Below the pieces are notes generated by a model. It saw only the letters and a list, made by a program, of their open reading frames with translations. It searched no databases and was not told the DNA's origin. Shown piece by piece: positions 2,935 to 28,847 of a stretch of DNA of 64,000 nucleotides (position 1 is its first letter; each line of letters starts with the position of its first letter). The stretch is from Octopus vulgaris (taxonomy: Eukaryota). Where the stretch lies: the NCBI GenBank assembly GCA_951406725.2, contig OX597822.1, positions 52,514,001-52,578,000 on the forward strand, read 5' to 3'. The position numbers were made by a program, and so were the translations under genes.

Positions 2935-3371
2935 TAATCTCCAATCTGCAATCGATAGAAACCAAACAAACTCCTCCACATACATACACACAAAACAGTG
3001 AAACGAACCATAGATAGCGCCTTTATGTTGTGGATCGGCCTGCAAGAAAGAGTAAGCCATTCTTTCAGAAAGTTCCCCCTGTCATCTTCCGAAAGAACAT
3101 AGGGAATATCCTGAATATACCTGGCGACAAAAAAAAAAAAAAAAAAGATGTGATGATCCTAGCTGGAATACCCTTTTATGTTCGTGCCTGTCTGTTTAAT
3201 CAGAGCCGACTTGAGGCGGTGTGGGGCAGTGGAGATGTGTGGATAAACAAAACAACAATAACAACAAAACGGTGACATTAGCTTATTGACTGAACAATCT
3301 AATCAATCCATTACTTAATTCATAACAACTTAATAACACTGTCGTATCTCTTCGCCCTCATATTTCATATA

Positions 3372-3707
3372 TTAATGATTTAGAATCTTTTGGGCAGACA
3401 AGAGAACTTCTTGAGCAGCCAAAAAGGACGGAATTTCACTGAGTTCTTGTTGAACTTTATCATGGAAGGTTTTCAAATCATCGTAAGCCACCTCCAATCT
3501 TTGCATGGTTTGGAATATCATATTTTTCGCCTCACGCATCATGTCTTCTTGTTCGGCAATGTCACGTTCATCTTCGTTCGTTTCTTTCATTTTGTCAAGT
3601 CTCTGCATATCTTGTTTGAGTTCAACTTCGTAGGATGATTTTTCATGGATGAATTGCTGTAAAACACCGGCTTTAACCTCTAATTCCTTTACGATGTCAC
3701 TGTTCAT
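3372..3707 (-). CDS. TBCA: Tubulin-specific chaperone A (TBCA)-like, single exon, divergent
   Basis: Intact 111-aa ORF. It aligns by eye along its whole length with TBCA: ELEVKAGVLQQFIHEKSSYEVE ~ QIKIKTGVVKRLVKEKVMYEKE, and MMREAKNMIFQTMQRLEVAYDDL ~ ILQESRMMIPDCQRRLEAAYLDL. Confidence 0.88.
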   Translation of the reverse strand: MNSDIVKELEVKAGVLQQFIHEKSSYEVELKQDMQRLDKMKETNEDERDIAEQEDMMREAKNMIFQTMQRLEVAYDDLKTFHDKVQQELSEIPSFLAAQEVLLSAQKILNH

Positions 3708-4176
3708 TGTGGGGTATTTATTCTCTTTTTTTTTATCTTTTACAATTATTCTCTTTGTTTCCGCTGTAAAATTTTGAAGTTATTTTTCTGTTTTTTTTTT
3801 CTTATTTTTTGCTTTAGTTATTTGTGGTATATTTTATATTTTCGCTTTTATAATACTAAAGCGCTTTACTGTTTTTTTGTTGTTTTCAAGTTTCTTTGAT
3901 AAATTAGGATCTCTTTAAACAAATGTATTAATAAAATATTTTAAATATTTTATAGTCGAAAGGAAAGCTTACTAACAGCCTGGTTTTAAACTTTTTTTGA
4001 AAACTTAAAACTAGTTTGGCAATGCGGCAGCTTTTCTTTCCAAGTTAGAATGTCCGTCCATTAAGTCTTCCTGGCTTTCTCTCTCTCTCCCTTCCTCTGA
4101 CATACATTCTCTTTCGTCTCTTACTTTCTATCTATCCATTTCTCTTTATATGTATCTCTCTGTCTCTCTCTTTCAC

Positions 4177-4238
4177 GTTGTTAAGGACAACTACTGGCAT
4201 ATGTTTTGGCTTGTTGCTATGACTACTAATTATCCAAT
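4177..4238. promoter_or_regulatory. Two RFX X-box-like motifs plus CCAAT box in the TBCA/LRRC9 divergent interval
   Basis: GTTGTT-AAG-GACAAC (4177-4191) fits GYTRYY-N1-3-RRHRAC; GTTGCT-AT-GACTAC (4213-4226) has 1 mismatch; CCAAT at 4234. Confidence 0.6.
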
Positions 4239-4566
4239 CAAAAGCAGCGATTTCAGTTACTCGTGGCTGTAACTAATTCAAATATATATTCGCTTAACAC
4301 TTGCCGGAAAACTATAAGAAAAACCTGTTTATCACAGCTAATAGTAGTAGTAATAATAATAATAATGGCAGCTCTGGTCAAGGCATGAACGTTGCAACAT
4401 CTTATTTCCCTACGTTTATAAATCCTACTTCAATTCAGTCCGCTGTTATGTAGCGACGTATGGCTTATAGACCTAACGCTTTTAAAATTAATACAATGAA
4501 AGTCACATCATAACTATTTTCTACTACTGTTCTCGCTAATTTACTTTCCTCTCTCTCTCTCTCCCC

Positions 4567-4600
<34 letters not shown>

Positions 4601-5787
4601 GTTTATATATATATATATATATATATATACTTATATATATATATAGCTGTTACAAATCAAGCGACACCATGCTACGTAAGAAATACTTTTATTGTTTATT
4701 GTTGTTGTTTGTATAAAGCATTAGAAGGTAGTTAGGCTAATCTTTGCCTTCCGTACTTCGGGAGTTGGTAACATAAAGTACTAGTCGATTAAATTAATCA
4801 CGGTTCTTCTCTACTTTGTTAAAAGTTGGTAGTGGTGGACATATATTGTTGTTGTTGTTGTTTAAAAAAACTTGTGATACACGGTATTATTTACTTTAAC
4901 TACCACCATATGTACCATGAACCCAGAACCTCGTTATCTGACATGTCTCTTTCTAAAACGGTGAGATGTTTTTGAGGGGTATTTTACTGCTCTTTCTAGT
5001 AGGTCTAGCGACCATATAGTAACTCCCTTGTTGGCTCAACAAGTTATTTATATTTGACATTTGAGGAGAAAATTGTACAAGATGTTGTGTCCCTTTTACA
5101 TTCACAGTCGAAATCTCAGTTGTACCCCCTTTACATTCACAGTTGAAAGCTCACCTATATCTACTTCGGTTTTTACGTTGCTGGGATTGATTATTACTAC
5201 AGCGATTTCATCGACTTTGCCCCTCCGCCCAAAAAATATATGGTCTTGTATTTATGTGAGATAGTATTATGATTATTATAGTCGTCGTTGTTGTTGTTTA
5301 AGCCCTGGTCATTTCTCATCAAGCAAACCGAGAATCAAAAGTCACGACCAGTGTGTCTTTTCCTAACTTAATACCTTACTATTTTTGATACTTCAAAAGA
5401 CCATATAGAGGCAAAGCTCTCCTTGGCAGGATTTCAACTCGGGGTGCAAAGAATCAAAACAAATACCACAAGTATTCCATCTAACGTTCAATGAATTTAT
5501 TATGTATGGTGGAATACCACTGATTCGACAGTTCGATTGACTGTATTAGTGGCTTTTACTTCTTCGATGATAAGAGGAGCTTTGGTGTGGTTGCTTGACC
5601 TGTTGGAATTAACAGTCCAATTTCCCTCAAATTACAATGTGCCATTTTACAAATAAGACTGGAGACTTTGGATGATGTAGTTCTAAATGCACTGTAATTG
5701 AAATAAATATAAAAATGGAGTATCTTTGGTCATAGATCTCCTCAAACATTGTTAACTTCGGCTAAACAGTTACAACTATTATACTCA

Positions 5788-6212
5788 AGGGAGGTAGTGG
5801 GTAGCGATTTTCTTCACTAATTCAGGGAGTGACGACTCTGCCTGACACGAGTCCCGGGCTCATCTGGCTCCTGCTGACAGTACTCGGTATGGGCCCCTAT
5901 CCAGGGTTGCGGAAAGGAAACAACCTTCAAAGAAATCCAGAGTGGAGCCCCGTCGGCGGTTTAATGTTCAACTTGACACTCTTCTGGCAGCTCCTGCAAC
6001 CAAGCTGGTGCCAAACATAATGCTCTGCACTCCTTTGGATTACATCAGCAAGGTCAAGAGAGGAATCCTGACGATTGGGCTGCCCAGGATTTTCTTACAT
6101 CTAGCCCAGGCCTGCGCAAGACTGGACAGGACATGAAATGTAAAAACCAGACTGGATTAGTTTATGTGCAACTCCATTGTCTCCCGAGACAAAAGGATGC
6201 CAACAACAACAA
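5788..6212 (+). mobile_element. GC-rich non-autonomous retroelement-like insert with (CAA)n tail
   Basis: Compositional island, microsatellite tail, imperfect TCAAGG(G/A)AG flanks. Confidence 0.4.
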
Positions 6213-6394
6213 TTCAAGGAAGGGTGAAAATAGGAATCGACTTTGACAGAAGTTTCATTCAGAATATTTTAAATACACATTGTGATTAAATACCAAAACA
6301 TATTTGGTTCTCTTCTCTGCCATTCTATCTTTTGTCTTGTAGAGTTCCAAAGGTAACTGAATACCTCTGATAGTTTCATACTATCTGACAAATA

Positions 6395-6439
6395 ATGGAC
6401 ACGAAGAATTACAAAGAGGAGCATCAACTTGAGGAGGTG
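6395..6439 (+). CDS. LRRC9: LRRC9 coding exon 1 (MDTKNYKEEHQLEEV)
   Basis: ATG at 6395, donor GTAAGA at 6440, phase 0 into CTANGLSY. An upstream acceptor ttttgtcttgtag ending at 6342 suggests a non-coding first exon. Confidence 0.75.
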
Positions 6440-8730: not shown

Positions 8731-8949
8731 TGCACTGCCAATGGATTGTCATATGCAAATGTCAGGGAAGAAGGAAAATACGTACATGAGCTGGAGATGT
8801 TTTTCTCGGGTTTGACAAACATTCAAGGATTTCACCATTTCCCGAACCTTCAACGACTGGTCATCATACAGCAATGCATTGATTGCACACATGGACTACG
8901 TCAACTGCCCAACCTGCAAGAGCTTTGGATGTGTCAGTGTGGATTAAAA
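8731..8949 (+). CDS. LRRC9: LRRC9 exon 2 (CTANGLSY...ELWMCQCGLK)
   Basis: tttttttcag acceptor, gtaagt donor, 73 codons, LRR motifs. Confidence 0.95.
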
Positions 8950-10164
8950 GTAAGTGACATCTCGTTTAGCCACTCTGACTCTGCCTAAAAGAAGTTCTTG
9001 CTCTGTAAACTGTTTTCACTTCTTTCACTGCAAAGGAACAGTAACAATGGGTGCAGAAATCTCTGTAAAATTATCATCATCATCATCATACGTCCATTTT
9101 CCATGCTGGCATGGGTTAGATTAGTGCTACTCAAAGTGGTGGTCCACAGACTGGTGCCAGTATGCGGCAAGTTTCCAGAAAAGAAACATTATAAAATGCT
9201 TATAAAATGTTTATGTAATATTGTACTAAAAAAAAAAAAACACGATTTTCCGTGACCGTTGCCAGTACCACCTGACTGGCCCCTTGTGCCGGTGGCATGT
9301 AAAAGCACCCACTACACTCTCAGAGTGGTTGGTGTTAGGAAGGTCATCCAGCTGTAGAAACTCTGCCAAATCAAGATTTGGAGCCTGGTGCAGCCATCTG
9401 GTTCGCCAGTCCTTGGTCAAATCGTCCAACCCATGCTAGCATGGAAAGCAGACATTACACGACGACGATGATGATGGTGATGATTTGTTTACAAAATAAA
9501 TATGCGATAAAAAAGTTGTCAACTTTTATTATATTTAATCATCATCATCATCATCATCATCGTTTAACGAACGTTAAACGATGATGATGATGATGATGAT
9601 TATATATATTGCTTCCAGTATAAATTAATATTACTAAGAAATATTACCATTCTCTGGCACATTGGAAAAAAGAAACTGCCAGTACGCCACATCAGATAGT
9701 TTGAGAAGCACTGGGTGAGATGATTTAACTGGCGATTGTAAGCCAGAGAGCTGCACCAGGCCCCAGTCAGTTTTGGCTTGGTTTCTATGGCTGGATGCGC
9801 TTCCTAGTGCCAACCACTCCACAGAGTGTACCAGGTGCCTTTTACATATCATCAGCACAGGTGCCTTTAATATGTCACTGGTATGTGAGCCTTTTACGTG
9901 TCACCAGCATGGGTACCTCTCACATGTCACTGGCACAGGTGCCTTTCACATGTCACTGGCACAGATGCCTTTATTGATTGATTTCTGCAGTGATGCTTTA
10001 CATCATATTGAAAGAGTGGGAGAGTGAACATGAAATACAGAAAAAGTAGATATAAGAGGTGCTGCATAAGTACACATACTAGGCTTGGTGACTGAAAGAG
10101 AGTAAAGGGATACTATACATGTACATACACAGATGCACTTTAACACACAGTGAAAGAGAAAATA

Positions 10165-10246
<82 letters not shown>

Positions 10247-11982
10247 CTATTTCTGCTTCTCTATTTCTCTGTTACATCATTCGACACTGGATCACCTCTT
10301 CAAATGCCCCCTCTGTTATGGCAAGACACCTGCTTCTGTCTCTTTGTCATACTCTAACCATTCATCCTCTAACACAAGTTCCCCATCTCAAATGCCCCTG
10401 CCCCTCTCATAATTCCTTCTCATACTAGTTACTTGGCTACCATGCCACTGCTGGTTCCACATTAAAAGCATCCAGTCCACACTATAACGTGGTTGGCATT
10501 TGGAAGGGCATCTAGCTGTAAAAATCATGCCAAAACTAACCTCGCTTGTGCTAGTACCACGTAAAAAGCACTGAGTTCAATGAGTTCAATCCGTGGAGTG
10601 GTTGGTGTTAGGAAGGGCATCCAGCCATAAAATTCCTGCCGAAACTGACACAGTAGCCTGGGGTAGTTTTTCTGGCTCCTGTCAACCGTCCTACCCATGC
10701 ATGGAAGATGAACATTAAACGAAGAGGGAATAAATGACTGTTCATTAGAGAAGTTGTAACAAATGATGTATTACACTGGTAGTGAAGGCGTATGGCTTAG
10801 TGATTAAGGTATTCGGCTCACAATTGCAAGATTGTGAGTTCAATTTCCAGTGACGCATTGTGTTCTTGAGCAAGATACTTTATTTCATGTTGCTGGCAAA
10901 ACTGAGTAGTACCTGTATTTCAAAGTTGTGGAAGCTTCATTAAACAGGTACATAATAACTTGTAGGAATGATCTTGATTCCATGCTGTTACCTATAATGA
11001 AATCAAGCCTGTTCAACATTTTTGATGAAATCATTTATTTACACAAAAAATATACAGAGGTTTTTGTCAAGAGTAAATTATGCCAGAAGTCTTGGTAAAT
11101 ATCTATCACGAGCAAAACGCCCCCACCTCCACCTCACCCCCATCCAATGGACAGTGCTGAGTTGTCAAACATTTAATCCAAATTTTCTCAAAACAACTTG
11201 TCCGTTTTCTTTTCATTAAAAAATAATTAAGCATGCCTTTATTTCAATAAAATATTTGGTTTTGTTAAACAAAGTTAAGGCAAAAAAAAAAACTTCTTGA
11301 GAAACCAAATCGTCTTTCCTTCCTTCATACCAAGTTTGAAGAAAATGTCTCTTTTGCATCTTATGTTTTTGATCTCTTAAATATACTGCATTTTGTGGCA
11401 TTATTTCAAGCCAGCCGGCTTTTTTTGCGCAAACTGCACATGCATTTTTCTCACGTATGCATAGTATCAATCACAACAGCTGATGTATTTGCGCATACAA
11501 ATGCACGTTCCCACGGCTTTATCGATCGCATTCTCACCTGGAATCGATTTTCGTAATTTTTTCAAGACTTATACACGCCCTGATACCATTGGTATCTACA
11601 TAACAAATTTGAGCACAATCGGATGGAGGATGCCCAAGATCCTAGAAGACACACAAACAGACAGACAGATCGGATTTTATATAATAGATTAGAGATATGA
11701 CTGCATGCTTACAAAAAATGTAACTATATCTTAATGTTGTGAGACTGAGGAAAATTCCATGTTCATTGTAGACAAACAATTTCTTTTAATCAGGGGTCAG
11801 CAGATCTTTGTTGCATCTGCCTGATTGTGGCATGCATCTCAATTCATAGCCCTGTTCTGGTGAGAAACTCATGGAAATTTCCATTCACATACAATTGAAC
11901 AATTGTAGCTGAAATACTATTAGCTGACAATCAGCCCAAGATCGCCTGATATACTGTGGCCTATTTCTTGTCACTGAGCTAA

Positions 11983-12147
11983 CAGACACAGGAGTGGCTG
12001 TGTGGTAAGTAGCTTGCTTACCAACCACATGGTTCTGGGTTCAGTTCCACTACGTGGCACCTTGGGCAAGTGTCTTCTATTATAGCCTCGGGCCAACCAA
12101 AGCCTTGTGAGTGGATCTGGTTGACGGAAACTGAAAGAAGCCCGTCG

Positions 12148-12179
<32 letters not shown>

Positions 12180-12416
12180 TATATGTATGTGTGTGTATAT
12201 GTTTGTGTGTCTGTGTTTGTTCCCCCAACATCGCTTGACAACCGATGCTGGTGTGTTTACGTCCTCGTAACTTAGCGGTTCAGCATAAGAGACTGATAGA
12301 ATAAGTACTAGGCTTACAAAAAATAAGCCCTGGGGTTGATTTGCTTGACTAAAAGGTGGTGCTCCAGCATGACCACAGTCAAATGACTGAAACAAGTAAA
12401 AGGGTAAAAAGAGAGT
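11983..12416 (+). mobile_element. SINE family B full copy
   Basis: Same features as 7857-8518, opposite orientation. Confidence 0.85.
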
Positions 12417-12522
12417 AGGGTTTCAAATTTAAGCTTTGCTACAGAGCACTCTGTTAATGGTTTTACCTTCATGACACATCTTTGTCTAATCATCTTATCA
12501 TCAAGCTTTCCAAAGCAAATAA

Positions 12523-12795
<273 letters not shown>

Positions 12796-13374
12796 TGAGT
12801 TCAAATCCCACTAAGGGCTTAGCTTTGTTATTTCTCTAAAGTACAAAAGTTGTGAAGTTGTTAAGGCACTGATGAAGTACAGACACATAGGCATAGATGT
12901 AAATTCAAACTTAACTCCAGCCTTTGTTCAGAATACATAACATTGATTACCTTTCTGTGTCAAAAATTGTGAAACAAAAATGATTTTGCTGTTGTTTCAT
13001 GTTGCTTCATGAGTTCTTAATGGTAAGAATGGTATCTAACTATAAAACTTAACCCAACTGTGCAAAATTTTTTTTTTGTAATGTGATACCGGTGTTCTAC
13101 TTGAGAGTTATTGATGTTACTGTTCTTTGGACACAGATCACTATGATCTGGTAAAAATATAATCAAGCGATTTCCAGTCATGACCATCCCTCCTTTACTT
13201 ATTTTTAGACTTTGTGTATTTGGGACTACATTATCCAGTGTTCTTCTTTGAAAATGATAGAGTGGTATTTGAGTGAGATTTTGCTGCTAATTCTAACAGG
13301 TCAAACCACCATTTAGAGTCTTCCTTGTTTTTTTCTTTTTCTTAATTGTTTTTTCTGGTTATATGTATGTGTGT

Positions 13375-14500
13375 GTTGGTGAGGATCTGTGCCACTCCAC
13401 TAGGAAATAGGCCTGGCAGATGGGATACTCTTGTGACACCATTACCTTCACTTGATGAGTAAGATAATACCTCATTGCATGGGTGCCACACACTCTGAAC
13501 GAAAGAGACAAACTCCAGCACTCTTCTATCTCTGCCAGTTTGTTTGCTCAACACCAGGCTACTTATGGACACAAACAGGGATTTCTTTACTACATCATCT
13601 CCAGTAATGAAAAATGGCACCTTTACATCGGTATGAAGCAGAGGAAAGAACGGTTGAGTTTTGACAAGTATGCAATACTTCAAACCAAGCCAAAGACAAT
13701 GATATGCACTTGTTGGAATTGGGAAGAACTAATCCACTGCAAAATGCTTGGTGGCTATGTGGTATGTAGCTTGCTTACCAACAACATGGTTCTGGGTTCA
13801 GTCCCACTGAGTGGCACCTTGGGCAAGTGTCTTCTACTATAGCCTCGGGCTGACCAAAGCCTTGTGAGTGGATTTGGTAGACGGAAACTGCAAGAAGCCC
13901 ATCGTATATATGTATATGTTTGTGTGTCTGTGTTTGTCCCCCCCCCCACCAACATCGCTTGACAACCGGTGCTGGTGCGTTTATGTCCCTGTAACTTAGC
14001 GGTTCGGCAAAGGGGACCGATAGAATAAGTACTAGGCTTACAAAGAATAAGTCCTGAGGTCGATTTGCTCGACTAAAGGTGGTGCTCCAGCATGGCCGCA
14101 GTCAAATGACTGAAACAAGTAAAAGAACAAAAAGAACATTCAATACATAACATTCAGTAAAGGCACCAACTCAACTAGACAACCCAGCAGAAACTACCCA
14201 ACAGGTAACACAGCAGCACTCATCCCAATGTTGCTAATTTCTCCAAAAATGCTATTCAAGAGCTTGGTTGGGAAGTTCTACCATACCCACTGTATTCTTT
14301 TATTATAGTGCTTTCAGATTGTCACCTTTTTCAGTCACTCTCCAACAGTTTGCAAGATGTTTTGTTCAACAACAATATGGAGTCGAAAAACGTGGCTCAA
14401 GGAAGTCTTTGAGTCGAAACTCAATGAGTTCTCCCATTAAGGCATTGTCTAGCTAGTGGAATATTAGCAAGAAGTTGGGAACAGTGAAGGGAGATACATT
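13375..14500 (+). mobile_element. Degenerate mariner transposase remnant interrupted by SINE B (13751-14138)
   Basis: WVPHTL, FLY.II..NEKW..Y and PK.M.C.W motifs; WEVLP.P.YS-like motif after the SINE. Confidence 0.75.
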
Positions 14501-14693
14501 ATTGACTGATTTGCTAAAACTGTTGATGAAAGGTAAGGATTAAAATAAATGGAAAAGAGACAAACGAATTTTTGTGACAACCCAACATTTTGAGAGAAAG
14601 GTAGGAAGTAGGGTGACTAAACTTGTAATTCAAGGACCAGACTTGTTACACCCACTGTCAGACTGATTCTGCTTGAGGACAGTGGAATATTCA

Positions 14694-17084
14694 GCCACTT
14701 ACCATATAATGGTTTCAAATTTTGACACAAGGCTGAGAAGGGCTATCCAATTACTTTGCCCCGCCCCCAGTGCTTAACTGACATTTATTTTATTGACCCT
14801 GAAAGGATGAAAGAAAAGTCAGTCTCAGTAGAATTTGAACTCAGAATGTAAAGTGCTAGAAGAAATGCTACTAAGCATTTTTATTAATGCATTAAGGATT
14901 CTGCCAGCTTGTTGCTTTCCACTTACTATATAATAATAATAATAATGAAATTATTGTATACAGTGCTCAGGTGCACCACAACTTGTCAAATGTGCATATA
15001 AAGTATATGCAGTAATGTACAAGTGTCTGGAAAGCGAACAGATACATGCTTGCGTGTGTATGGAGAGGAGTAAATCAGGTGTAGTGTTGGCGAATCTCAG
15101 GAAGCATGGAAGTTTTGAAGGATGCAGTGCTCCGACAACTAACAACTGATGCCGGCAGTTTGTTCCATGCTTCAGCAACTCTTAGTGTGAAAAAATGTTT
15201 CCGAAAGTCATGGGAGCTGTGCTGTTTTCTGACTTTGTAAACATGTCCACGGGTGTTAGACAGATGGAGTTTGAAAAGGTGCTCAGAGTTATTGTTTGTA
15301 AGAGGGTTAATAATTTTATGGGTGGCTGCCAAGCTGACTTGGCACAAGGCCTGAAATGTGGTGGAAGCGGGATAGTCAACTACATCACCTCCAGTGCTTT
15401 ACTGGTTCTTATTTCATCAACCTTGAAAGGATAAAAGTCAAAGCTAACCTTGACAAAATTTGAACTCAGAACATAGAAAAAAAACTGAAACTGACATTCT
15501 GTTGGTTACGACAACTAGGCTTCCAGTTGATCCAATCAATGGAACAGCCATCTTGTTAAACTAATGTGCAAGTGACTAAGCTCTCTACAGACATGAATAC
15601 CCTTAATGTACCTCTCAGGAAGATTCAGCATGACACATAACGTGACAAGGCTGGACCTTTGAAATACTGGTACTACTCATTTTTACCAGCTGAATGGACT
15701 GGAGCAACATGAAATAAAGTCTCTTGCTCAAGGACTCAATGCACCACTAGGAATTGAACTCACAACCTTATGATCATGAGCTGAATACCCTCTAACCACT
15801 AAGCCATGTAAAAGCCAGAAGTAATATACAGCTGAGCATCTTTTCCAATGTACTAATAATTCTACCAGCTTGTTGCTTTCCACTTGCTATATAATCCTTT
15901 CTGCTATGGGCACAAAATCTGAAAGCTAGGGTAAGGGTCTAGTCAACTACATCATCCCCAGTACTTGACTGGTTCTTATTTCATCAACCCCGAAAGCTTG
16001 AAAGGCAAAGTTGACCTTGGCGAAATTTGAACTCAGAAAATATAAAAAACAAAAGGGAACCAACACTGTCATTATAGCAAGGATTCAAGTCGATCCAATC
16101 AAAGAAACAGCCTGCTCAGGAAATTAATGGGCAAGTGGCTGAGCACTCTATTGACATGCATACCTGGCCCCTGTATCAGTGGCATGTAAAATGAGTGGTT
16201 GGCATTAGAAAGGGCATCCAGCTGTAGAAACACTGCCAGATCACACTGGAGCCTGGTGCAGCCTCCTGGCTTCCCAGACCCTGGTCGAACCGTCCAACCC
16301 ATGCTAGCATGGAAAACGGACGTTAAACAATGGTGATGATGATGATAATCAGCTTGACATAAAATGTAACAAGGCTGGCCCTTTTAAATACAAGTAGAAC
16401 TCATTTAAGCCAGCTGAGTGGACTGAAGCAACATGAAAGAAAGTGGTTTGCTCAAAGGCACAATGCACCCCAGGAATTGAACTCACAACCTTATGATCAT
16501 GAGCCAAGTATACCCTAACCACTAGGCCATGTGTCTTCAATATAAAGAGCCAGAAGAAAGGCTGCTAAGCATTTTTATTAATGCACTAAGTATTCTGCCA
16601 GCTTGCCACCTTCCACTTACTATATAATCATTTCTGTTACAGACAAAAGGCCTGAAATCTGGTGGGGGCAGAACTAGTCAACTACATTCCCTCCACTACT
16701 TGACTGGTTCTTATTTCATTAACCCCAAAGGATGAAAGGCAAAGTCAACCTTGTTGAAATTTGAACTCAGAATATAAGAGTCAAAACAAATATTGCTAAG
16801 CATTTTTTCCAGTGTGCTAATAATTCTTCTAGTTTGCCACTTTCCACTTACTATGTAATCCTTTCTACTCGAGGCACAAGGCCTGAAATTTGATGAGATG
16901 GGGCCAATCGATTAGATCAACCCCAGTACGCATCTGGTACTTAATTTATTGACCCCAAAAGGATGAAAGGCAAAGTCAACCTTGACGGAATTTGAACTCA
17001 GAACATAAAGACAGACAAAATATTGCTAAGCATTTCGCCCAGCGTGCTAACGATTCTGCCAGCTCACCACCCTTACTATATAAT
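14694..17084 (-). repeat. Tandem array of SINE C units with nested SINE D, CR1 and RTE inserts
   Basis: Five units of about 230 bp separated by CCACTTACTATATAAT-like spacers. Confidence 0.7.
14950..15335 (-). mobile_element. CR1-like LINE 3' fragment
   Basis: NTRGH..K......R..FF..RV...WNKLP motif typical of the CR1/L2 ORF2 C-terminus; (TTA)n tail. Confidence 0.8.
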
Positions 17085-17509
17085 GCAATAAATAAATAGC
17101 TGAATTGATCAAGCATCCAGAATACTCATCATTGCAATCCATCTCCTTCCATATTCTGTTGGTTCTTTATTTGGTTTTATTAAAGAAACCCTTCAGTCAT
17201 GAATGACCACGGGATTGCACCTAAAATCTTCCCCTCCAAGTTCAAGATTATTTATGGAAGACCAGCAGTCGCCCATGCGTATCAGCCTCTCCTCTCCAGG
17301 CCACTGATGTTATCCAAGGGAAAGACAAAAAGACAAAAGAATGATGCAGCTTGGCACCAGTGATGTTGCAACTCACTTCTACAGCTCAGTGAACTGGAAC
17401 AAAGTGTCTTGCTCAAAAACGCAACACAGAGCCTGGTCCAGGAATCGAACTCACCACGACACTAACTACTGAGACATGCACTTTCTTGGTTTTATTAATG
17501 TTTTGTTAA

Positions 17510-17719
17510 CCCTTTTGATGCAACCACCTCTGATTCTCAAATGCACACTCCTTCTTATTAAGGCAACTAAATGAAAATCTTCTATTAAACTGACGCAATA
17601 ATTTCTGCTCAATACACAGCTTAATAAAGATTAAATTATTTCACTAAATTCTTAATTATTTTAAAAACTAATTGAAAACAAAGGCAGTGTATTTCAACAG
17701 AAATATGGTAACAAAAGGG
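17510..17719. mobile_element. piggyBac-like MITE
   Basis: TTAA|CCCTTTTG ... CAAAAGGG|TTAA. Confidence 0.7.
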
Positions 17720-17749
17720 TTAATTATATTTTCTCTCATTTCATTCTAG

Positions 17750-17813
17750 AACTTGATTTCCTTAAAGTATTTGAAAGACCTGAACCTTGCTGACAACAAG
17801 ATTATAAAAATCG
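17750..17813 (+). CDS. LRRC9: LRRC9 exon 4 (NLISLKYLKDLNLADNKIIKIG)
   Basis: ttctag / gtaagt; LRR; ends in phase 1. Confidence 0.92.
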
Positions 17814-18306
17814 GTAAGTTTTGGAAACATTGATCTGATGCAGTTTCATGTACATTTAAATCCAACTATATATGCACAAAGACACACACACTCAGACAAA
17901 CACCCACACATACACACACATGCAACACACATACGTACATACTTACAGACCATATATATGCACACATGTTTACAAGTACAAATGTACTCACACACACACT
18001 TGTGTACATTTTATTTTATTTATGCGCCATTTTCAAGCCTAGCCAGGCTCATGAGGCCCGGTTTTTCGATATCTGTGGCGTATGTGTTACCCCCAGCTGG
18101 ACAGGATGCCAGTCCATCACAGTGTTACTCAAGAAACAGGAAGAAAGAGTAAAACATGGGTCGCCACCCCCACTGCCGGAGCCTTGTGGAGCTTTAGGTG
18201 TTTTCGCTCAATGAACACACACAACACCTAGTCTGGGACTTGAAATCATGGTCATCCAACCGCGAGTCCGCTGCCCTAACCACTGGGCCATTGCGCCTCC
18301 ACCTCT

Positions 18307-18354
<48 letters not shown>

Positions 18355-20945
18355 CATCATCATTTAATATCTGCCTTCCAATGGAGCTTGTATATGAGCA
18401 TACTTATATACAAACACAGACACACACACTCATGTTTACAAAGCATATATACACATATGCATGTGTGTATATATATATATATATATATATTTATGTGTGC
18501 GTGTGTGTGTCTGTATTTCTCTCTTCTCCCCACCCGCAACCCCATCATCGCTTGACAACCAATGCTGATGTATTTATCTCCCCGATAAAATAAGTACTAG
18601 GCTTACACGGAATAAGTCTTGTGATCGATTTCTTTATCTAAAGCCCTTCAAGGCAGTGCTTCAGCATGGCCGCAATCAAATGACTGAAACAAGTAAAAGA
18701 AGAAAAGAATATATATATATATATATATACTAGCAAATGCACCCATCCTTTGGATTGTTTAAGTTGCTTTGGTGGTATTTTTTTCACCAAATATTTGAAC
18801 TACTGGGAAGGTTTATGAGTAGCACGGCAATCTATGTTGCCAATTAATCTAAGAACAGAAAACCAAATTGAAGACTGTTTATTGTGGAGGTCATTACACT
18901 TTAATGATCATAGAACTGGCATCCGTTGCTAGTGGAGCGCTAAGAGTACCATATGAGTGAGATCGTTGCCAGAGCAACAAGCTGGCCTTTGTGCCGATGG
19001 CATGTTAAGCACACCATTCAAGCATGATCGTTACCACGTCACCTTACTAGCACTTGTGCTTGTGGCATGTGAAATATTCAAGCAAGGTTGTCGCCAGTGC
19101 CGCTAGACTGGCTCCTGTGCTGGTGGCACGTAAAAAGCACCATTTGGGCGCGGCACGTAAAAGCACACACTACACTCTCGGAGTGGTTGACGTTAGGAAG
19201 GGCATCCAGCTGTAGAAACTTTGCCAGATCAGATTGGAGTCTGGTTCGCCAGACCTCAGTCAAATCGTCCAACCCATGCCAGCATGGAAAGCGGACGTTA
19301 AATGATGATGATGATGATGATGATGATGAGAACATATAAGTTTTCAAGTGATGCAAAGTAGAGCTACTGAAGTGTTTTGAGAGTAGATTACAGATAATGG
19401 CTACAAAATATAGTTGTTTTACATGAAAGCGAAATTTCTTGTCAGAGACAGCCACATAATTAGTGTAATGAAATTGAAGGAAGCCATTGAAACTTCTCCT
19501 CTGAGTTTATTTTTTTGGAGAAATAAGCTAACAAAAGCCCCTTTATTCTGTCGTCCCACATAGCCTGCACATAAACCAACAGCGAATGCTTCATGAAGTT
19601 AAATTGGTATGGAGCTTTCTGAAAGATATGTATAGCTTTCACTAATGGAAGCAAAACTCTTATTTAAAGGTTGATTGCAGCCAAGGTTGACTTTGCCTTT
19701 CATCCTTTTGGGGTCAATAAATTAAGTACTAGTTGCACACTGGGGGTCATTGTAATCAACTGGTTCCCTCCCCAAAAGTTTCAGGCCTTGTGCCTATAGT
19801 AGAAAGGATTATTATTATTATTATAATTCAGTAGTCTTATTTTTATCATGTGCTTTCACTGCACTACCAAGTGCAACTCTGCATGTTTTGAGTTTGTGCT
19901 GTGGTTTATTTTGGAGCTCTTATTTTCACTGTATTGAAAGTTCTTTATGTAGGATGTGTGCAGTGCCTAGTAGTGCTATTTTCTGTATGTTATATATATT
20001 TGTAAGTCCTGGTGTTTTGGGTAAATATTTGCCTGAATGTTTTTTTAATTATACCTAATGCACCTATTATTATAGGGATTGTTTCTGTTTTCAGGTTATC
20101 CCTATTTCCAGATCTTTATATTTTGAGAGTTCCTTTTAGAGATATACTGTCATCTGTTGGGATTAATACGTTGATTAGTAGACTTTTTTTTTCTTGATAA
20201 TCTCTGACAATTACAAGAGTTGGTCATTAAAGATTTCCCCTGACCCACTCCCCAATGACTGGGATGAACGAAACTTGGCATAATTATTAGTCCTTTTCTA
20301 CATAGCCACCACCAACAGTGACACTTCTCTCATTGCTTTATGCAGTTGTAAAGACCTTGTCTGTAGAAGTTGGTAGGTTGCTTCTGGAGCTAAGACTTTA
20401 CCACAGAAATATGTTCGGTGGCACGTGTAAAAAGATTCAAGCAAGGTCATTGCCAGTACCGCCTGACTGGCCCCTGTGCTGGTGGCACGTAAAAAGCACC
20501 CACTACACTCTCGGAGTGGTTGGCATTAGGAAGGGCATCCAGCTGTAGAAACTCTGCCAAATCAAGATTGGAGCCTGGTGCAGCCATCTGGTTTGCCAGC
20601 CGTCAGTCAAAATCGTCCAACACATGCTAGCATGGAAAGCGGATGTTAAACGATGATGATGATGATGTAGGTATTAGAACTGCTTCTCTGGTAAAGGAAA
20701 AGACATTGGCTCAATAACCAATAATATTTTTATAATGTTTGGTGCTGGCTTGGCTATGTGGTAAGAAGTTTGCTTCCCAACCACACTGTTGCATGTTCAA
20801 TCCTACTGCATTGTACCTTGGCAAGTGTCTTCTATTATAGCTCTGGGCTGACTAAAGCCTTGTGAGTGGATTTGGTCAACAGAAACTAAAAGAAGCTTGC
20901 CATATACGCATGCGTGTATGTAGCACGCATTCTTGTGTATATATC

Positions 20946-21321
20946 TCTTTACTCTCTTTTACTTGTTTCAGTCATTTGACTGCGGCCATGCTGGAGCACC
21001 GCCTTTAGTCGAGCAAATCGACCCCGGGACTTATTCATTGTAAGCCCAGTACTTATTCTATCGGTCTCTTTTGCCGAACCGCTAAGTGACGGGGACGTAA
21101 ACACACCAGCATCGGTTGTCAAGCAATGCTAGGGGGACAAACACACACATATACATATATATACGACGGGCTTCTTTCAGTTTCTGTCTACCAAATCCAC
21201 TCACAAGGCATTGGTCGGCCCGGGGCTATAGCAGAAGACACTTGCCCAAGATGCCACGCAGTGGGACTGAACCCGGAACCATGTGGTTGGTTAGCAAGCT
21301 ACTTACCACACAGCCACTCCT
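20946..21321 (-). mobile_element. SINE family B full copy
   Basis: Near-identical to the other B copies. Confidence 0.85.
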
Positions 21322-21500
21322 CTGTTCCCCATCATTTCTAGGCAACCATTATTGTTTGTGTACGTCCCAGTAAATTATTGGCTTTGCACAAGAGACCAAT
21401 AGAATAAGTTCCTGCATTTAAGAAGTACTGGGGTCGATTTGTTCAGTCAAAACATTTCAGTGAAGTATACCAGCATGGACGCAATTCAATGACTAAAACA

Positions 21501-21830
21501 TCTCTATATATATAAACGGCAAAATGTCAGTCTGTGTGTGTGTCCTTTATACAAATCCACATTTTTTCAGTTAGAGAGCTCGCACTTTCTATGGTCATTT
21601 AAAACCGTCCAAGGGTGGTCGTGCACATCTTTACATTTCCCTAGTCACCCGCAAAGCCATTAAAAAATCAATAGAAGTGACTTTTTTGTGAATTTTCTAT
21701 CCAAAACCCAATCAAAATGCCCCATATGCCAATTGAATGCCAGCTAGCTGTATGTGACTGGTCGGAGAGTTGGACAGTACTCGCGTGTATGTGCGCATGC
21801 ATGCACTAGCACTATGACCCGGCAACGCAC
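21501..21830 (+). mobile_element. Non-autonomous Helitron (family H2)
   Basis: A|TC start; near-identical to 2578-2934; GCACTATGACCCGGCAACG hairpin arm. Confidence 0.65.
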
Positions 21831-22149
21831 AAGGCTTGGTATTTTAGGGGTCGGGGGCTAATCGATTAGATTGACGCCAGTGCACGATCGCCCCTTCTTT
21901 TATTGACTCTCAAATTCGGCCCCGTCGGAATTTAAACTCAGAACGAAAAGCCGAAAGAAATGCTGCAAATCATTTTATCTGGTGTACTAACGATTCTGCC
22001 AGCTAGCTCGCCGGCTTATGATAATGCGAAAGAAAAAATTGCAAGGGAAGTAACTGCAGCAAACTTTGTATTTGAGTCAGTTCCCTTCAGTGAGCAAGTA
22101 ACGTTTAATTGATCGTATCCTCTCTCGTATCTAAAGCTTTGTGTAGATA

Positions 22150-22314
22150 AGCGTAGGAGTGGCTGTGTGGTAAGTAGCTTGCTTACCGACCACATGGTTC
22201 AGGGTTCAGTCCCACTACGTGGCACCTTGGGCAAGTGTCTTCTACTATAGCCTCGGGCCGACCAAAGCCTTGTGAGTGGATTTGGTAGACGGAAACTGAA
22301 AGAAGCCCGTCGTA

Positions 22315-22345
<31 letters not shown>

Positions 22346-22535
22346 GCGTGTGTTTGTGTGTCTGTGTTTGTCCCCCTAGCATTGCTTGACAACCGATGCT
22401 GGTGTGTTTATGTCCCCGTTACTTAGCGGTTCGGCAAAAAGAGACCGATAGAATAAGTAATGGGCTTACAAAAAGAATAAGTCCCGGGGTCGAGTTGCAG
22501 GCAAATGACTGAAACAAGTAAAAGAGTAAGAGTAA
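22150..22535 (+). mobile_element. SINE family B full copy
   Basis: Near-identical to the other B copies. Confidence 0.85.
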
Positions 22536-22559
22536 TAGCATTAGCTCAGAGACCGTCTG

Positions 22560-23105
22560 GATCATCACTTATACTTGCAAAACCCCATACCTGAAAGACT
22601 TGGTGGCATGTAATCAAGCAATATACATGACACTAACAGAAACACATCTGAATGCTGACATATCAGATGCTGAGAGACGCATACCCAAGTATGCTGTATT
22701 TCGAACAGACAGGAGAGAAAGAACTCATAGTGGAGTGATAAAATACATCCTGGACGATGTCATGCCTGTGGTCCTGCTGTCACATTCAAACTTAGTTTGT
22801 GCTACACTTGTAGTAAAAATTAAACAGACCAAAACAGTAATATGTACTACATATTGCCCACCAGATGCTCCAGATCATGGGGACTCATTCGAAGAGAGCC
22901 TCACAAAGATGGAAGAAGTATTACCCAGTTTTGTTGACAACAGGCGCAGGAGTGGCTGTGTGGAGTGTAGATTGCTTACCAACCACATGGTTCCGGGTTC
23001 ATTCTCACTGCATGGCACCTTGGACAAGTGTCTTCTACTATAGCCTCGGGCCAACCAAAGCCTTGTGGATGGATTTGGTAGACGGAAAATAAATGAAGTC
23101 CGTCG

Positions 23106-23136
<31 letters not shown>

Positions 23137-26006
23137 GTTTGTGTGGCTGTGTTTGTCCCCCCCCACCACCACCACCAACATCGCTTGACAACCGATGCTG
23201 GTGTGTTTACATCCCCATCACTTAGTGGTTCAGCAAGAGAGGCTGATAGAATAAGTACTAGGCTTACAAAGAATAAGTCCTGGGGTCGATTTGCTCGACT
23301 AAAGGCGGTGCTCCAGCATGGCCACAGTCAAATGACTGAAACAGATAAAAGAAAAAAATAATACTTTTTTAGGAGACTTTGACCTCCATGATGTTGAATG
23401 ATCTAAGGGCCACCTTCTCTCAGGTATATCACTTGCATGAACAGAGGCAAGCAGAATCTCTGCTTAACCTCACAACATGCTCTTTATGAAGCAAATAGTG
23501 CTCCACCCAACAAGCGGTAAAAAATATTCTAGACCTCTGATTCACAAATAAGGCAATACTCATCCATGATGTTAAGGTGACACCAACGATTTTAGGCTAC
23601 TAGAAGCACCCAACTCTTTTCCAGTTGGAACTTGCATTAAGTGGTTATGGAACAAAACTGATCTACAAGTCTCTCTACACAAGATATCCACGTAAAACTA
23701 CAGAACTTTATGACAATCATGCATGCCATATGCAGTAAGATAACTTCAGAGGGAATGTTGACAGAAAGACACCATTCTTAGGGAGAGGAAGATTCTAATG
23801 AGATGACAAGAAAAGGTCTCAAACCGTCTAAGTGAGTCACAAAAAGATAGTAAAGAATCCTATCTCCTTCCATGAGAAGGAGACAGCAGAGAAGAAAACC
23901 AGGGCTGTCGAAAATGTAAAGACAAACCCTAAAGACTTCTAAAGATTTGCAAAAAATATCTGCTTCAGTACGGTACAAGTTAAGGGTTCACCAGCTGCAG
24001 ACCCCCAGAGGATAAGTGAAATACTGAATGTGTATTACAATAGTGTTTTCACAACTCCTTTGGGGCACTTGCAAATAGCTATACCTTAAGAGTTCTTTGA
24101 CACCACAGCTTTACACAAAGGGATGTCAATTATTTATAACATAAAAATAGAGAAAACTGATGTAATATCAGCCATTGATGAAATGAACTTAAACTCAGTC
24201 ACTAACCCCGATAGATTCTCAGCAGCCCTCCTAAATAACTGCAAAGGGGCTCAAGCAAGACCACTACAGATACTTTTCCAGAGCTTCCCCACAACTGAGA
24301 GACTTCTCAGTAAGTTAAAAGAAGGCTTATGTCCTATCCATAAAGGAGGTAGCAGAGTAGATGCTAATAATACTATAGGTCTGTCTCTCTAACCTCCCAT
24401 ATCAGCAAAATCATGAAAGACATTTTCCAGAGGAAACTGATTGCATTCATGGAATATATAATAACTTACTCCTTGACACCCAGCATGGTTTCCACTCAGG
24501 AAGAAGCTGCTTTACACAGCTTCTGCAGCATTATGACTAGGTGTTGAAACAACTAATGAATCACTCAATGTGGATGTGATATATCTTAATTTTGCAAAGC
24601 CCTTTAATAAGGTTGATTATGAGATGAAATGTCACAAGTTACAGAGTCTCAGCATAGTCTGAAAACTGGGAGACTGGTTACATGACTTCTTAAAGACAGA
24701 ATCCAGGTTGTGACAACCAAGGAGACAGTAATAACGAGTGGAGTGCCTCAGGGAACTGTTTTACAGCTGCTGTTGTTTATGATGGCTCTTTTGAAGATGC
24801 CATCAGTTACACAGACATCCACACCTACTAGCTATGCCGATGACACAAAAGTAGTACAAGCAGTGAAGGAACCTTCCAATATTAATCTACAGAAAGACAG
24901 AGATATCATATATAAATGGGCTGAAGAAAACAGCATGCACTTCCTTGCTAGGAAATTCCAAGCCTTCACTATCAGCTGGCTTGTGCTAACATTCCACCAC
25001 AATGATATTTTAGATCAAAGGGGCAGAAATCCCAGAGTCAAGTACGGTACATGATCTAGGGATTGATGTAAGCAACAATGCCTCATTTCACATGCATATC
25101 ACCAAGATGAAGTCAATGTGCAAATGAACTTCAGAACAAGGGACTAGGAAACTATACTGGTTCTCTAGACAACCTTTGTCCTCAGCCCTCTGGACTATGG
25201 CTCTCAACTGTGGTCACCTTACAGTGACAAATTACTAGTGGAACTTGAAGCAGTTCAGCAGTGTTACACCAGGAAGATTGCATCAGCAGAAAAGCTGAGC
25301 TACTGGGAGAGACTGAAAGAGATACTATCCTACTGCCTGGAGCAAAGACAGGAAAGGTATGCAGTGATGTACATATGGAAGAGCATCATGAGCTATATTA
25401 ATTCCCAAACCAGACGTCACTGCACTGTTCCAAAGATTCCAGGTATCCCTTCTAGATACCTGGCAGAAACGTTTGCACGCTGGGCGAAATGCTTAGCGGT
25501 ATTTCATCTATCGCTACGTTCTCAGTTCAAATTCCGCCAACGTCGACTTTGCCTTCCATCCTTTCGGGTTCGATTAAATAAGTACCAGTTATGCACTGGA
25601 GTCGATATAATCGACTTAATCCGTTTGTCTGTCCTTGTTTGTCCTCTCTGAGTTTAGCCCCTTGTGGGTAGTAAAGAAATAGGTATCCCTTCTAGAGTGT
25701 GAACCATGTACTGCAATAGTTTGTGATTCTAGAACCCACAGCTATTTAATACCATGCTAAAACATCTGAAGGGTCTACATGGAGTTGAGGGTAGATGTTT
25801 TCAAAGAACAACTTGACCTCCTGCTCTCCAAGGTCTTAGATGAACCTACATCACAACAATAAACTCAAAAGAGGGCAGCAATATCGAACTGCCTCCTTCA
25901 CAAAAAGCCAATCTCGTAAGAATGGCCACTGAAAAGGTGATAACACTGGTGGTGCTCCTGCATGGCCACAACCTTTGGGTTGAAACACCTAAAAGAATAA
26001 AAGAAT
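22560..26006 (+). mobile_element. Decayed CR1/L2-group LINE (APE endonuclease + RT) with two nested SINEs
   Basis: LTETHL, YCPP, GDF, QHGF..GRSC, SGVPQGTVL, YADDT, LEAVQ..YTRKI and LSYWERLK motifs with frameshifts and stops; TAAAAGAA-type tail. Confidence 0.88.
25457..25680 (+). mobile_element. SINE family C with 16-bp TSD inside the LINE
   Basis: AGGTATCCCTTCTAGA at 25441-25456 and 25681-25696. Confidence 0.85.
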
Positions 26007-27124
26007 ATTATAAATAAATATTACATCATTTTTCCTGTAAATATGGAAGATAACTCCGATGGTTCTGAGTCATTGCTATCAACATAGGCACAAAGCTTCA
26101 GATATGAGAGAAGATATGGTCGATTTTGAACCCCAGTTCCCATTATTTGCTCAATAAAACAAGATCATAAAACATGACCTAGACGCAGCAGGCTTCCCCT
26201 CCCAACTCGAGCTAACTGGGCTGAATAGAAGAGACGGTAAAAGTTCAGCCGCCATGACAGTTTTACCATTCCTCGATGGTAGGTCCCTCATCTGCAATGT
26301 CACATGCTGTGACACCTTCACCAGTAGGAACCTGGTGTGTTCAGCTGCCAGCCAGGCTCCACTGTTCTTCAAGGTGAGAAAAGCAAATTGCCAAAGTATC
26401 AGCCATTCTCATAGGTTTGAGGTCAAGCTTGTAGCAGTGGAGACTTTCAGCATTGTTGATCCCTAACTACATCCCTCCTTACAACTATTAGGGCTGAGAT
26501 GGCTAACCGCTAGTGCAAAGTTCCCTGGGTCAAAGTGGCTGTTCCAGCCTGTCTCCCTCGCTATCCTCCGGCGCAACACCTTTTCCATTTTGTCCTCTGG
26601 GACCATGAGGCGGACTGACAAGGCTTGTGTCTCTTAAATATAATTTGTATTTGCTCAACAATCTACTCCAGAAACAGAAACTTTACGATTTTGTTTTGAA
26701 CTTCGTAAAGAATTATTTATAAAGGGAACTAACTCAAAGATAAGTCTTTATGCAGTTACTTCCCTTGTTGGATTTTAATTTTAAGATTATCTGTACCAAT
26801 ATTGTTTGTTTATGCAGTTGGGACGCAGCGGTTAGTGGACCAATCGACATTTTTGGATATTAGGATGTAGTTTGTTTAGCCGACACCTAGAAACTAGATG
26901 TAAGACCGGTATAATTAAATGAACTACCCAGCGTGTATTAACTGCTTGTACATAAATATTATCGCGTGTATTCATTGAACTATGCCTATATAAATTGTCT
27001 ATCTTAACATTATCTACTAACTGTTGTATCTATTAGATAAAGGTTACATACATGAGCCAAGGAAGATACATCCACCTGTTCGATCAACCTGCTAAAAGTA
27101 GCGGCCAAATTTTCCATTAAATCA

Positions 27125-27505
27125 CACAGCAGGAGTGGCTGTGTGGTAAGTAGCTTGCTTAACAACCACATGATTCCGGGTTCAGTCCCACTGCGTGGCA
27201 TCTTGGGCAAGTGTCTTCTACTATAGGCCTAGGCCGACCAAAGCCTTGTGAGTGGATTTGGTAGACGGAAACTAAAAGAAGCCCATCGTATATATGTATA
27301 TATATGTGTTTGTGTGTTTGTCCCCCTAGCATTGCTTGACAACCGATGCTGGTGTGGTTACGTCCCCGTCACTTAGCGGTTCGGCAAAAGAGACCGATAG
27401 AATAAGTACTGGGCTTACAAAGAATAAGTCCTGGGGTCGATTTGCTCAACTAAAGGCGGTGCTCCAGCATGGCCGCAGTCAAATGACTGAAACAAGTAAG
27501 TAAAG
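27125..27505 (+). mobile_element. SINE family B
   Basis: Family consensus match. Confidence 0.85.
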
Positions 27506-27982
27506 TATTATCTTACAAAAAGAAAAGGCACGTTAACTAGACGCAGTCACAAATATAAATAAAAGATAGGATTTATACCCATTGTTTTAACATTCAACAG
27601 CTACCTTTTGTAGCCATCCAAGTGACGCATACGCACTGATTATATTCAGTAAGCATATATTTAATGTATCTATTCAGACAATACACCTGCACAGTGTGAT
27701 TAACAAGTTTCTATGATCTCGGCCAGAACCGGCCTGAGGTTCAACAAATAACGGAAAAAAAGTAGAATAAAATGAAGTAAATAAAAAAGACTCCAGCTTT
27801 TACTTCCCAACTTTGTAGTTTTGTAATCAGTCCCGTTGCATGGCATCTTGGGCAAGTGTCTTCCATTGCCTTGCGAGTGTATTTGGTTGATGGAAATTTA
27901 AAGAAGCTTTTTGTTTGTGTGCATGTGTATATATATATCTACGTATGTATGTATGTATTATATATATGTATATATATATATC

Positions 27983-28634
27983 GAGATCTCTGGAGATATG
28001 CTGTGACTGCAAAGACCCAGGCTGCTTCCTGCACCGGACCTCACTGAGGCAATGGCAAAGGACCGAGATCTCTGGAGATATGCTGTGACTGCAAAGACCC
28101 GGGCTGCTTCCTGCACCAGTTCCACATAGCCCCTGCCCATTCAAAGTACCTTGGATTCCAGAACATCCCGCTGTGCTTGAGGAGACCTGTTGAGTCAAGT
28201 ACATGAACATCGAAATAAATATCAATGGAAATAGTAGTTGTGATACCTGTGCTGGTAACACATAAAAAGCACCATCCGAATGTGGCCGTTGCCAGCGCCG
28301 CCTCGACTGGCTTCTGTGCCGGTGGCACATAAAAAGCACCATCCGAACGTGGCCAATGCCAGCGCCGCCTTGGCTGGCTTCCGTGCCGGTGGCACGTTAA
28401 AAGCACCAACCGATCGTGGCCGATGCCAGACTCCCCTGGCATCTGTGCCGGTGGCACGTAAAAAGCACCCACTACACTCGCGGAGTGGTTGGCGTTAGGA
28501 AGGGCATCCAGCTGTAGAAACACTGCCAGATCAGACTGGAGCCTGGTACAGCCCCTGGCTTCCCAGACCTCGGTCGAACCGTCCAACCCGTGCTAGCACG
28601 GAAAACGGATGCTAAACGATGATGATGATGATGA
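27983..28634 (+). mobile_element. RTE 3' fragment (family A) with internal duplication
   Basis: RDLWRYAV end-of-ORF motif duplicated; (GAT)n tail. Confidence 0.8.

Positions 28635-28812: not shown

Positions 28813-28847
<35 letters not shown>

What the first reader, a model, noticed from the sequence alone, without database searches (positions are those of the whole stretch)
3372..6439. Intronless divergent TBCA head-to-head with ciliary LRRC9 across an X-box promoter
Seen: an intact single-exon TBCA-like ORF whose ATG lies about 470 bp from two X-box-like motifs and a CCAAT box, with LRRC9 diverging on the other strand. Known: RFX X-boxes drive ciliary genes, LRRC9 is cilia/flagella-associated, TBCA binds beta-tubulin, and vertebrate TBCA has introns. 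Inference: a retrocopy of TBCA captured the antisense activity of a ciliary promoter and became a cilia/sperm-specific tubulin chaperone co-regulated with LRRC9.
Basis: partly seen in the sequence, partly recalled or inferred. Interest (0 to 1): 0.75.

Follow-up and report, generated by a model that had tools for sequence, protein, structure and literature searches.

The report
Old intronless tubulin-chaperone copy beside LRRC9
This octopus genome has a second, intron-free and strongly altered copy of the tubulin chaperone TBCA, placed head-to-head with the cilia gene LRRC9; it is likely an old retrogene that borrows a cilia-type promoter, a known route to new genes, but its tissue and its tubulin binding are untested.

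Summary
An intact 111-aa TBCA frame (3372-3707, minus strand) faces away from LRRC9, with two X-box-like sites and a CCAAT box 470-530 bp upstream of its ATG. The genome also has a conserved four-exon TBCA on another contig, only 35/111 identical, so an old retrocopy is the best reading. The copy looks functional: it matches Octopus bimaculoides at 108/111 residues, has two unnamed 43-44% relatives, a confident TBCA fold, and contigs from RNA-guess runs. It keeps the three residues shown to be needed for beta-tubulin binding in the plant protein, but has lost the basic patch on helix 1 and the conserved Pro65. Not shown: a shared start region with LRRC9 (whose ATG lies 2.2 kb beyond the X-boxes and whose first exon I could not locate), ciliary or testis expression, and tubulin binding. 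Head-to-head promoter capture by retrogenes is documented in mammals and amphioxus, so this is a new member of a known kind. The boldest open reading is an isotype-specific chaperone for a tail-less beta-tubulin that this genome also encodes.

The parts
3372..3707 (-). Intronless TBCA paralogue, 111 aa, three-helix bundle
   Evidence: 108/111 identical to O. bimaculoides A0A0L8I4S1
3184..3371 (-). Likely 3' UTR; ATTAAA signal at 3200-3195, and one contig ends at 3184
   Evidence: motif; contig 3184-3455 of run X7: (one contig, weak)
3708..4083 (-). Likely unspliced A-rich 5' leader with a 16-codon upstream frame from 4061
   Evidence: contigs 3726-4020 (X1), 3879-4083 (X2), 3711-3901 (X5) are colinear with the genome; upstream ATGs:
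4075..4175 (.). CT/GA microsatellite, the only clearly repeated part of 3150-4520 (one further weak hit near 3776-3840)
4177..4191 (.). X-box-like site 1 (GTTGTTAAGGACAAC), fits a recalled fly pattern on both strands
4213..4226 (.). X-box-like site 2 (GTTGCTATGACTAC), fits a recalled worm pattern on the minus strand
4234..4238 (+). CCAAT box, the only one in 3701-4700
4239..5000 (+). Presumed, unlocated non-coding first exon of LRRC9; donor-like sites at 4728 and 4961
   Evidence: inferred; crude donor scan; CpG depletion sets in at 5-6 kb
6343..6439 (+). First coding exon of LRRC9 (ATG at 6395), after a pyrimidine tract and AG
8731..63476 (+). Further LRRC9 coding exons (17 matches, to about residue 731 of 1397; the gene runs beyond the window)

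Best explanation
The window holds an intact, intronless second TBCA gene set head-to-head with LRRC9; it likely arose as an old retrocopy of the four-exon TBCA on contig C2, is likely driven by the X-box pair between the two genes, and would then supply a beta-tubulin-holding chaperone to cells that build motile cilia or sperm tails. Shown: the layout, the parent gene, the conservation, the predicted fold. Inferred: retroposition (about 0.85), a working protein (about 0.9), RFX-driven two-way transcription shared with LRRC9 (about 0.55), and retained beta-tubulin binding through the surviving acidic and aromatic residues (about 0.6).
For: Parent: four exons of 53, 106, 87 and 87 nt with GT-AG introns on C2, 110 aa; it keeps 39 of 44 family-consensus columns against 25 of 44 for the window copy. 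Only these two TBCA genes were found. Age: 35/111 aa and 152/330 nt identity to the parent; it groups with two unnamed proteins P0003 and P0152 at 97/87 support and shares 15 residues with them against 6 with the parent, rare ones 7 against 1. Selection: 108/111 identical to O. bimaculoides, against 679/731 for LRRC9; an open frame survived 0.5 neutral changes per site in 28 of 2000 simulations without indels. Fold: pLDDT 96; the four best PDB matches are TBCA structures, TM 0.78-0.88. It keeps E22, Y26 and E59, which align with Arabidopsis E20, Y24 and E57, each needed for binding (PMC4427162). Transcription: contigs of four RNA-guess runs from three studies lie on 3184-4083. Layout: CpG observed/expected is 0.85 in the 30 kb upstream, 0.88 at 3301-5400 and 0.41 in the LRRC9 body, as expected if LRRC9 starts after the copy (gene-body methylation in molluscs is recalled knowledge). 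LRRC9 is listed as the homologue of FAP234, the axonemal partner of TTLL9 (PMC3873882 Table 1). RFX motifs are enriched at ciliary promoters from human to sea anemone (10.1101/085571).
Against: No start site was mapped for either gene, and no run had a tissue label. The runs are only guessed to be RNA, depths are 2-9, and they were chosen for holding this stretch. Each X-box is a moderate match, and X-box scans have high false-positive rates (PMC1794439); Rfx2 binding alone rarely marks ciliary induction. The protein has lost R18 (present in 125 of 125 other TBCAs), K21, K17, K10, P65, D66 and C67, and has 3 basic residues in positions 5-24 against 4-9 in the other 125; changes at human D66 and C67 affected binding. 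The AU test did not reject the window copy as sister to the C2 gene (p 0.33), so the old age is supported but not proven. The conservation excess over LRRC9 is not significant (Fisher p 0.10). No poly(A) tract or target-site duplication was seen (by eye).
Confidence: 0.45

Rival explanations
1. A functional retrogene whose expression is not tied to LRRC9 or to cilia: it uses its own start or general leakage from the neighbour, and the X-box-like pair serves LRRC9 alone or nothing.
For: The LRRC9 ATG lies 2169 bp from the X-boxes and its first exon is unlocated. Single sites are moderate matches. [quoted passage not shown]
Against: The only close X-box pair in 94 kb, with a CCAAT box, sits between the two 5' ends. 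Head-to-head retrocopy pairs were co-expressed at r about 0.6 in mammals.
Confidence: 0.25
2. Co-regulated with LRRC9, but the octopus protein has changed its client or mode of binding: it no longer grips ordinary beta-tubulin and serves a special isotype or another partner.
For: Stem branch of 1.72 changes per column to the Octopus pair, then near stasis. Basic helix-1 patch and P65 lost, pI 4.7 against 5.65, while P0003 and P0152 keep R18, P65 and D66. That patch was proposed to meet the acidic beta-tubulin tail (PMC4427162). The genome has an intronless beta-tubulin without the acidic tail.
Against: E22, Y26, E59 and R70 are kept. The tail-binding idea is a hypothesis in the cited paper. 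Nothing links the two genes: different contigs, and no match to two X-box patterns in 7 kb around the tubulin gene. Net charge -10 is low but within the family range, as 6 of 125 are at -10 or lower.
Confidence: 0.2
3. A DNA-level duplicate that lost its three introns later, not a retrocopy.
For: No poly(A) or target-site marks remain; the gene structure of P0003 and P0152 was not seen.
Against: All three introns are missing and the copy is on another contig; one retroposition is simpler than three losses.
Confidence: 0.07
4. A processed pseudogene read as a by-product of the LRRC9 promoter, acting at most as RNA, like mouse Tbca16.
For: Low contig depth; upstream ATGs in the leader; loss of conserved residues; no TBCA16 protein was detected in mouse testis (PMC3412815 abstract).
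Against: Full-length open frame at 46% nucleotide identity to the parent, too low for RNA pairing with it; 108/111 identity between Octopus species; neutral survival 28 of 2000.
Confidence: 0.03

Closest known systems
TBCA / Rbl2p family (PF02970; PDB 1h7c, 3mxz, 1qsd, 4cqi)
   Same: Full-length Pfam match, three-helix bundle, residues equal to Arabidopsis E20, Y24, E57 kept.
   Different: Basic helix-1 patch and the Pro called strictly conserved in the solved structures are lost; second copy beside a conserved parent.
Mouse Tbca16 (PMC3412815; abstract and one results section read)
   Same: Intronless second Tbca gene beside a three-intron parent.
   Different: Tbca16 is 98% identical to its parent, lies in an Adcy9 intron, and acts as sense and antisense RNA with no protein detected; the octopus copy is old, 32% identical and conserved as protein.
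Head-to-head retrocopies using bidirectional promoters (PMC4772013, passages; amphioxus SYCP1/CHIC, PMC5803294, abstract)
   Same: Intronless copy set in divergent orientation upstream of an older gene.
   Different: There the sharing rests on expression data; here it is inferred from layout and motifs. The parent is kept, unlike SYCP1.
FAP234/LRRC9-TTLL9 ciliary polyglutamylation module (PMC3873882, passages)
   Same: The neighbour is LRRC9, the listed FAP234 homologue.
   Different: No link between LRRC9 and TBCA appeared in the passages read or in the 6 papers listed for LRRC9 and cilia.

Membership tests
TBCA (PF02970) | Profile match over the curated cut-off along the whole domain | tested here: met
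   69.4 bits against 30.3, profile positions 3-99 of 99
TBCA (PF02970) | Antiparallel three-helix bundle | tested here: met
   predicted model pLDDT 96; TM 0.88 to 3mxz
TBCA (PF02970) | Residues needed for beta-tubulin binding in Arabidopsis (E20, Y24, E57) | tested here: met
   E22, Y26, E59
TBCA (PF02970) | Basic patch on helix 1 and conserved Pro-Asp-Cys at 65-67 (typical, not strictly defining) | tested here: not met
   R18Q, K21H, K17Q, K10E, P65F, D66Q, C67T
TBCA (PF02970) | Binds beta-tubulin | not testable with these tools
   needs a binding assay
Retrogene | Intronless copy of an intron-bearing parent at another locus | tested here: met
   parent with three introns on C2, copy on C9
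Retrogene | Poly(A) remnant and target-site duplication | tested here: inconclusive
   none seen in the 3' flank; not expected at 46% nt identity
Retrogene | Transcribed and under purifying selection | tested here: inconclusive
   low-depth contigs from RNA-guess runs; protein conservation; dN/dS not computed, no orthologous DNA held
Bidirectional promoter pair | Divergent orientation, not nested | tested here: met
Bidirectional promoter pair | Two start sites within about 1-2 kb, and co-expression | not testable with these tools
   contigs cannot show starts; LRRC9 first exon unlocated
RFX target promoter | X-box close to the start site | tested here: inconclusive
   two moderate sites closer together than chance suggests; start sites unknown
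RFX target promoter | RFX binding and X-box-dependent expression; motif conserved in relatives | not testable with these tools
   no related genomes held

The most novel reading that the evidence does not exclude
Octopuses have evolved a dedicated chaperone-client pair: a retroposed TBCA that shed its basic, tail-gripping face, switched on by the ciliary RFX promoter of LRRC9, handles the intronless tail-less beta-tubulin on C2 during sperm or cilium building. It would be an isotype-specific tubulin cofactor, a role called unknown in PMC8100514 (passage).
Probability: 0.08. Interest if true: 0.78.

Novelty: new member of a known kind. Interest (0 to 1): 0.42.

Why it matters
TBCA is known mainly as one conserved gene; the second mouse copy acts as RNA. 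An old protein-coding paralogue with a remodelled binding face is a natural experiment on two open points: how TBCA grips beta-tubulin (no complex came up among the fold-search matches) and whether cofactors choose among tubulin isotypes. Parent, copy, ordinary and tail-less beta-tubulin from one genome make this a simple two-by-two binding test. The promoter-capture story alone is a further example of a known route.

Tried and rejected
Complex prediction of the copy with the tail-less beta-tubulin and GTP gave no answer (score 0.00, mark 0.34; alignments not used); it is not evidence either way. No RNA holder is listed as on-record RNA. In the four runs laid, the bin 8808-9018 inside LRRC9 exon 8731-8949 and the bin 4377-4587 had no cover; contigs show presence only, so this was not used. 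Only 4 of 24 listed runs were laid; expression in the other species labels stays open. A loose end at 6326 in run X2 was tested as a distant LRRC9 5' exon: no match in the window, in the 30 kb upstream or in the genome; unexplained. Nesting of the copy in an LRRC9 intron was rejected on the CpG profile. A transposon origin of the X-boxes found no support. A CpG island could not be claimed, because the upstream DNA is equally CpG-rich. The A-run at 3128-3146 is on the wrong strand for a retro poly(A) tail. Supplements of two octopus gonad transcriptome papers (PMC11202624, 1 file; PMC6341066, 6 files) held none of the TBCA or LRRC9 terms; they may use other gene ids. Literature searches listed no paper on this gene by title or abstract start; for only 25 of 106 papers were listed, none with the accessions. 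Earlier findings of the scan: nothing in 4 look-ups. The tree used 45 of 130 proteins, and the residue counts use 125 of the 148 other top-150 hits, kept by length 95-140.

Full report
Source. The window is G000:C9:52514001-52578000 of a 2.8-Gb genome. Named relatives place it in Octopus; I did not determine the species.

Observation. The frame 3372-3707 on the minus strand encodes 111 aa without intron. It is a TBCA by Pfam (E 3.5e-19), by sequence matches to solved structures, by language-model features and by predicted fold (pLDDT 96; the four best PDB matches are the TBCA structures). LRRC9 runs the other way from ATG 6395, with 18 exon matches to O. bimaculoides LRRC9. Two X-box-like sites (4177-4191, 4213-4226) and a CCAAT (4234-4238) lie between them. 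The X-box patterns were recalled. The pair is unusual (1 of 1000 shuffles; the only close pair among 17 sites in 94 kb), but the test was post hoc, 2 of 4 patterns matched neither site, and each site has three mismatches to the ideal palindrome. The region is single-copy apart from a microsatellite.

Origin. A family search of the genome gave the window copy and two exons on C2; a search with P0152 found the same two loci. The C2 gene has four exons with GT-AG introns and encodes a conserved 110-aa TBCA. It keeps 39 of 44 consensus columns; the window copy keeps 25. Identity between the two is 35/111 aa and 152/330 nt. An intronless copy on another contig beside a three-intron parent is best read as a retrocopy. 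No poly(A) or target-site marks remain, as expected at this divergence.

Age and selection. O. bimaculoides has the same protein at 108/111. Two unnamed proteins, P0003 and P0152, are 43-44% identical to it and 79% to each other. They group with it at 97/87 support in a tree of 45 of 130 proteins, with a stem of 1.72 changes per column to the Octopus pair. Shared residues favour the same grouping, 15 against 6. The AU test did not reject the alternative of a direct sister relation to the C2 gene (p 0.33), and long branches are in play. The copy is at least as conserved between the two Octopus species as LRRC9 (108/111 against 679/731, p 0.10). A neutral frame stayed open in 28 of 2000 simulations at 0.5 changes per site. 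dN/dS could not be computed.

Expression. Contigs from four runs guessed to be RNA (three studies) cover 3184-4083 in colinear pieces at depth about 2-9. One ends at 3184, just past an ATTAAA at 3200-3195. This is weak support: the runs carry no tissue label, may hold DNA and were found with this stretch. CpG depletion sets in at 5-6 kb and lasts through the LRRC9 body (0.41 against 0.85-0.88). With gene-body methylation (recalled for molluscs), this places the LRRC9 start after the copy and fits a non-coding first exon near the X-boxes. It does not locate a promoter.

Protein surface. E22, Y26 and E59 match the three Arabidopsis residues whose single mutation abolished beta-tubulin binding (PMC4427162, parts 2 and 3 of 4 read). 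Yet R18, present in 125 of 125 other TBCAs examined, is Q, and K10, K17, K21, P65, D66 and C67 are also replaced. Only 3 basic residues remain in positions 5-24, fewer than in any of the 125. P0003 and P0152 keep R18, P65 and D66, so the remodelling happened on the branch to Octopus. The same paper proposes, as a hypothesis, that this basic face meets the acidic tubulin tail.

A possible client. While looking for a beta-tubulin I found an intronless one on C2 (139622591-139623880), 429 aa, 319/429 identical to an ordinary isotype and ending without the acidic tail. The same length is on record in O. sinensis, O. bimaculoides and one unnamed assembly. No evidence ties it to the TBCA copy.

Mechanism. 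Most likely the copy landed upstream of LRRC9, took up the reverse output of an RFX-type promoter, was kept as a protein for cilium- or sperm-building cells, and later changed quickly in octopuses. TBCA mainly receives beta-tubulin from recycled dimers and is abundant in mouse testis (PMC8100514, passages). LRRC9 is the homologue of FAP234, the partner of the axonemal glutamylase TTLL9 (PMC3873882, passages). Shown: layout, parent, conservation, predicted fold. Inferred: retroposition, shared promoter, tissue, binding.

Comparison with what is known. Head-to-head capture is documented for 11 human and 12 mouse retrocopies (PMC4772013, passages) and for amphioxus SYCP1 (PMC5803294, abstract). 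Mouse has an intronless Tbca16, but it is 98% identical to its parent and acts as RNA (PMC3412815, abstract and section 5). The octopus gene is in public databases as TBCA or uncharacterised. My searches listed no paper on it (listings only). Other papers seen as passages: PMC1794439, 10.1101/085571, PMC3069013, PMC9048481, PMC8987236. Supplements searched: PMC11202624 and PMC6341066. bioRxiv supplements were not seen and could hold expression data.

Verdict. A real, probably functional, old TBCA retrogene in a plausible ciliary head-to-head setting: new member of a known kind, interest 0.42. The remodelled binding face is its most distinctive feature.

Noticed in passing
L037:3591-4880 (+) = G000:C2:139622591-139623880: Intronless, divergent beta-tubulin of 429 aa without the acidic C-terminal tail; 74% identical to an ordinary isotype; same length in O. 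sinensis, O. bimaculoides and one unnamed assembly.
   Followed up: partly
G000 C9 (42.2 and 61.1-61.2 Mb), C11 (23.3-26.7 Mb), C6 (70.6 Mb): 41 Tubulin_C matches, with local clusters of alpha-tubulin genes, including at least seven near-identical divergent copies on C11.
   Followed up: no
L021:1327-2814 (-) = G000:C9 near 61.17 Mb: An alpha-tubulin whose frame is open from the second codon region to the end, unlike its neighbours, whose last exon starts later.
   Followed up: no
L038 (G000:C23 near 50.41 Mb): Beta-tubulin with the unusual tail listed for O. bimaculoides in PMC9048481.
   Followed up: no
window 6326: A contig of run X2 fits from 6326 onward but has an upstream part found neither nearby nor elsewhere in the genome.
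   Followed up: yes
window 5000-6000: Sharp fall of CpG observed/expected from about 0.85 to about 0.4 at the 5' end of LRRC9; a usable marker of gene bodies in this genome (the C2 TBCA body is 0.28, its promoter 1.05).
   Followed up: partly
window 18965-18978: The best X-box-like match of the window (two mismatches) lies deep in an LRRC9 intron; it shows that single matches can be incidental.
   Followed up: no
window 24090-25051; L009 about 5-6 kb upstream of the window: Frames that look like decayed reverse-transcriptase elements, judged by eye from translations.
   Followed up: no
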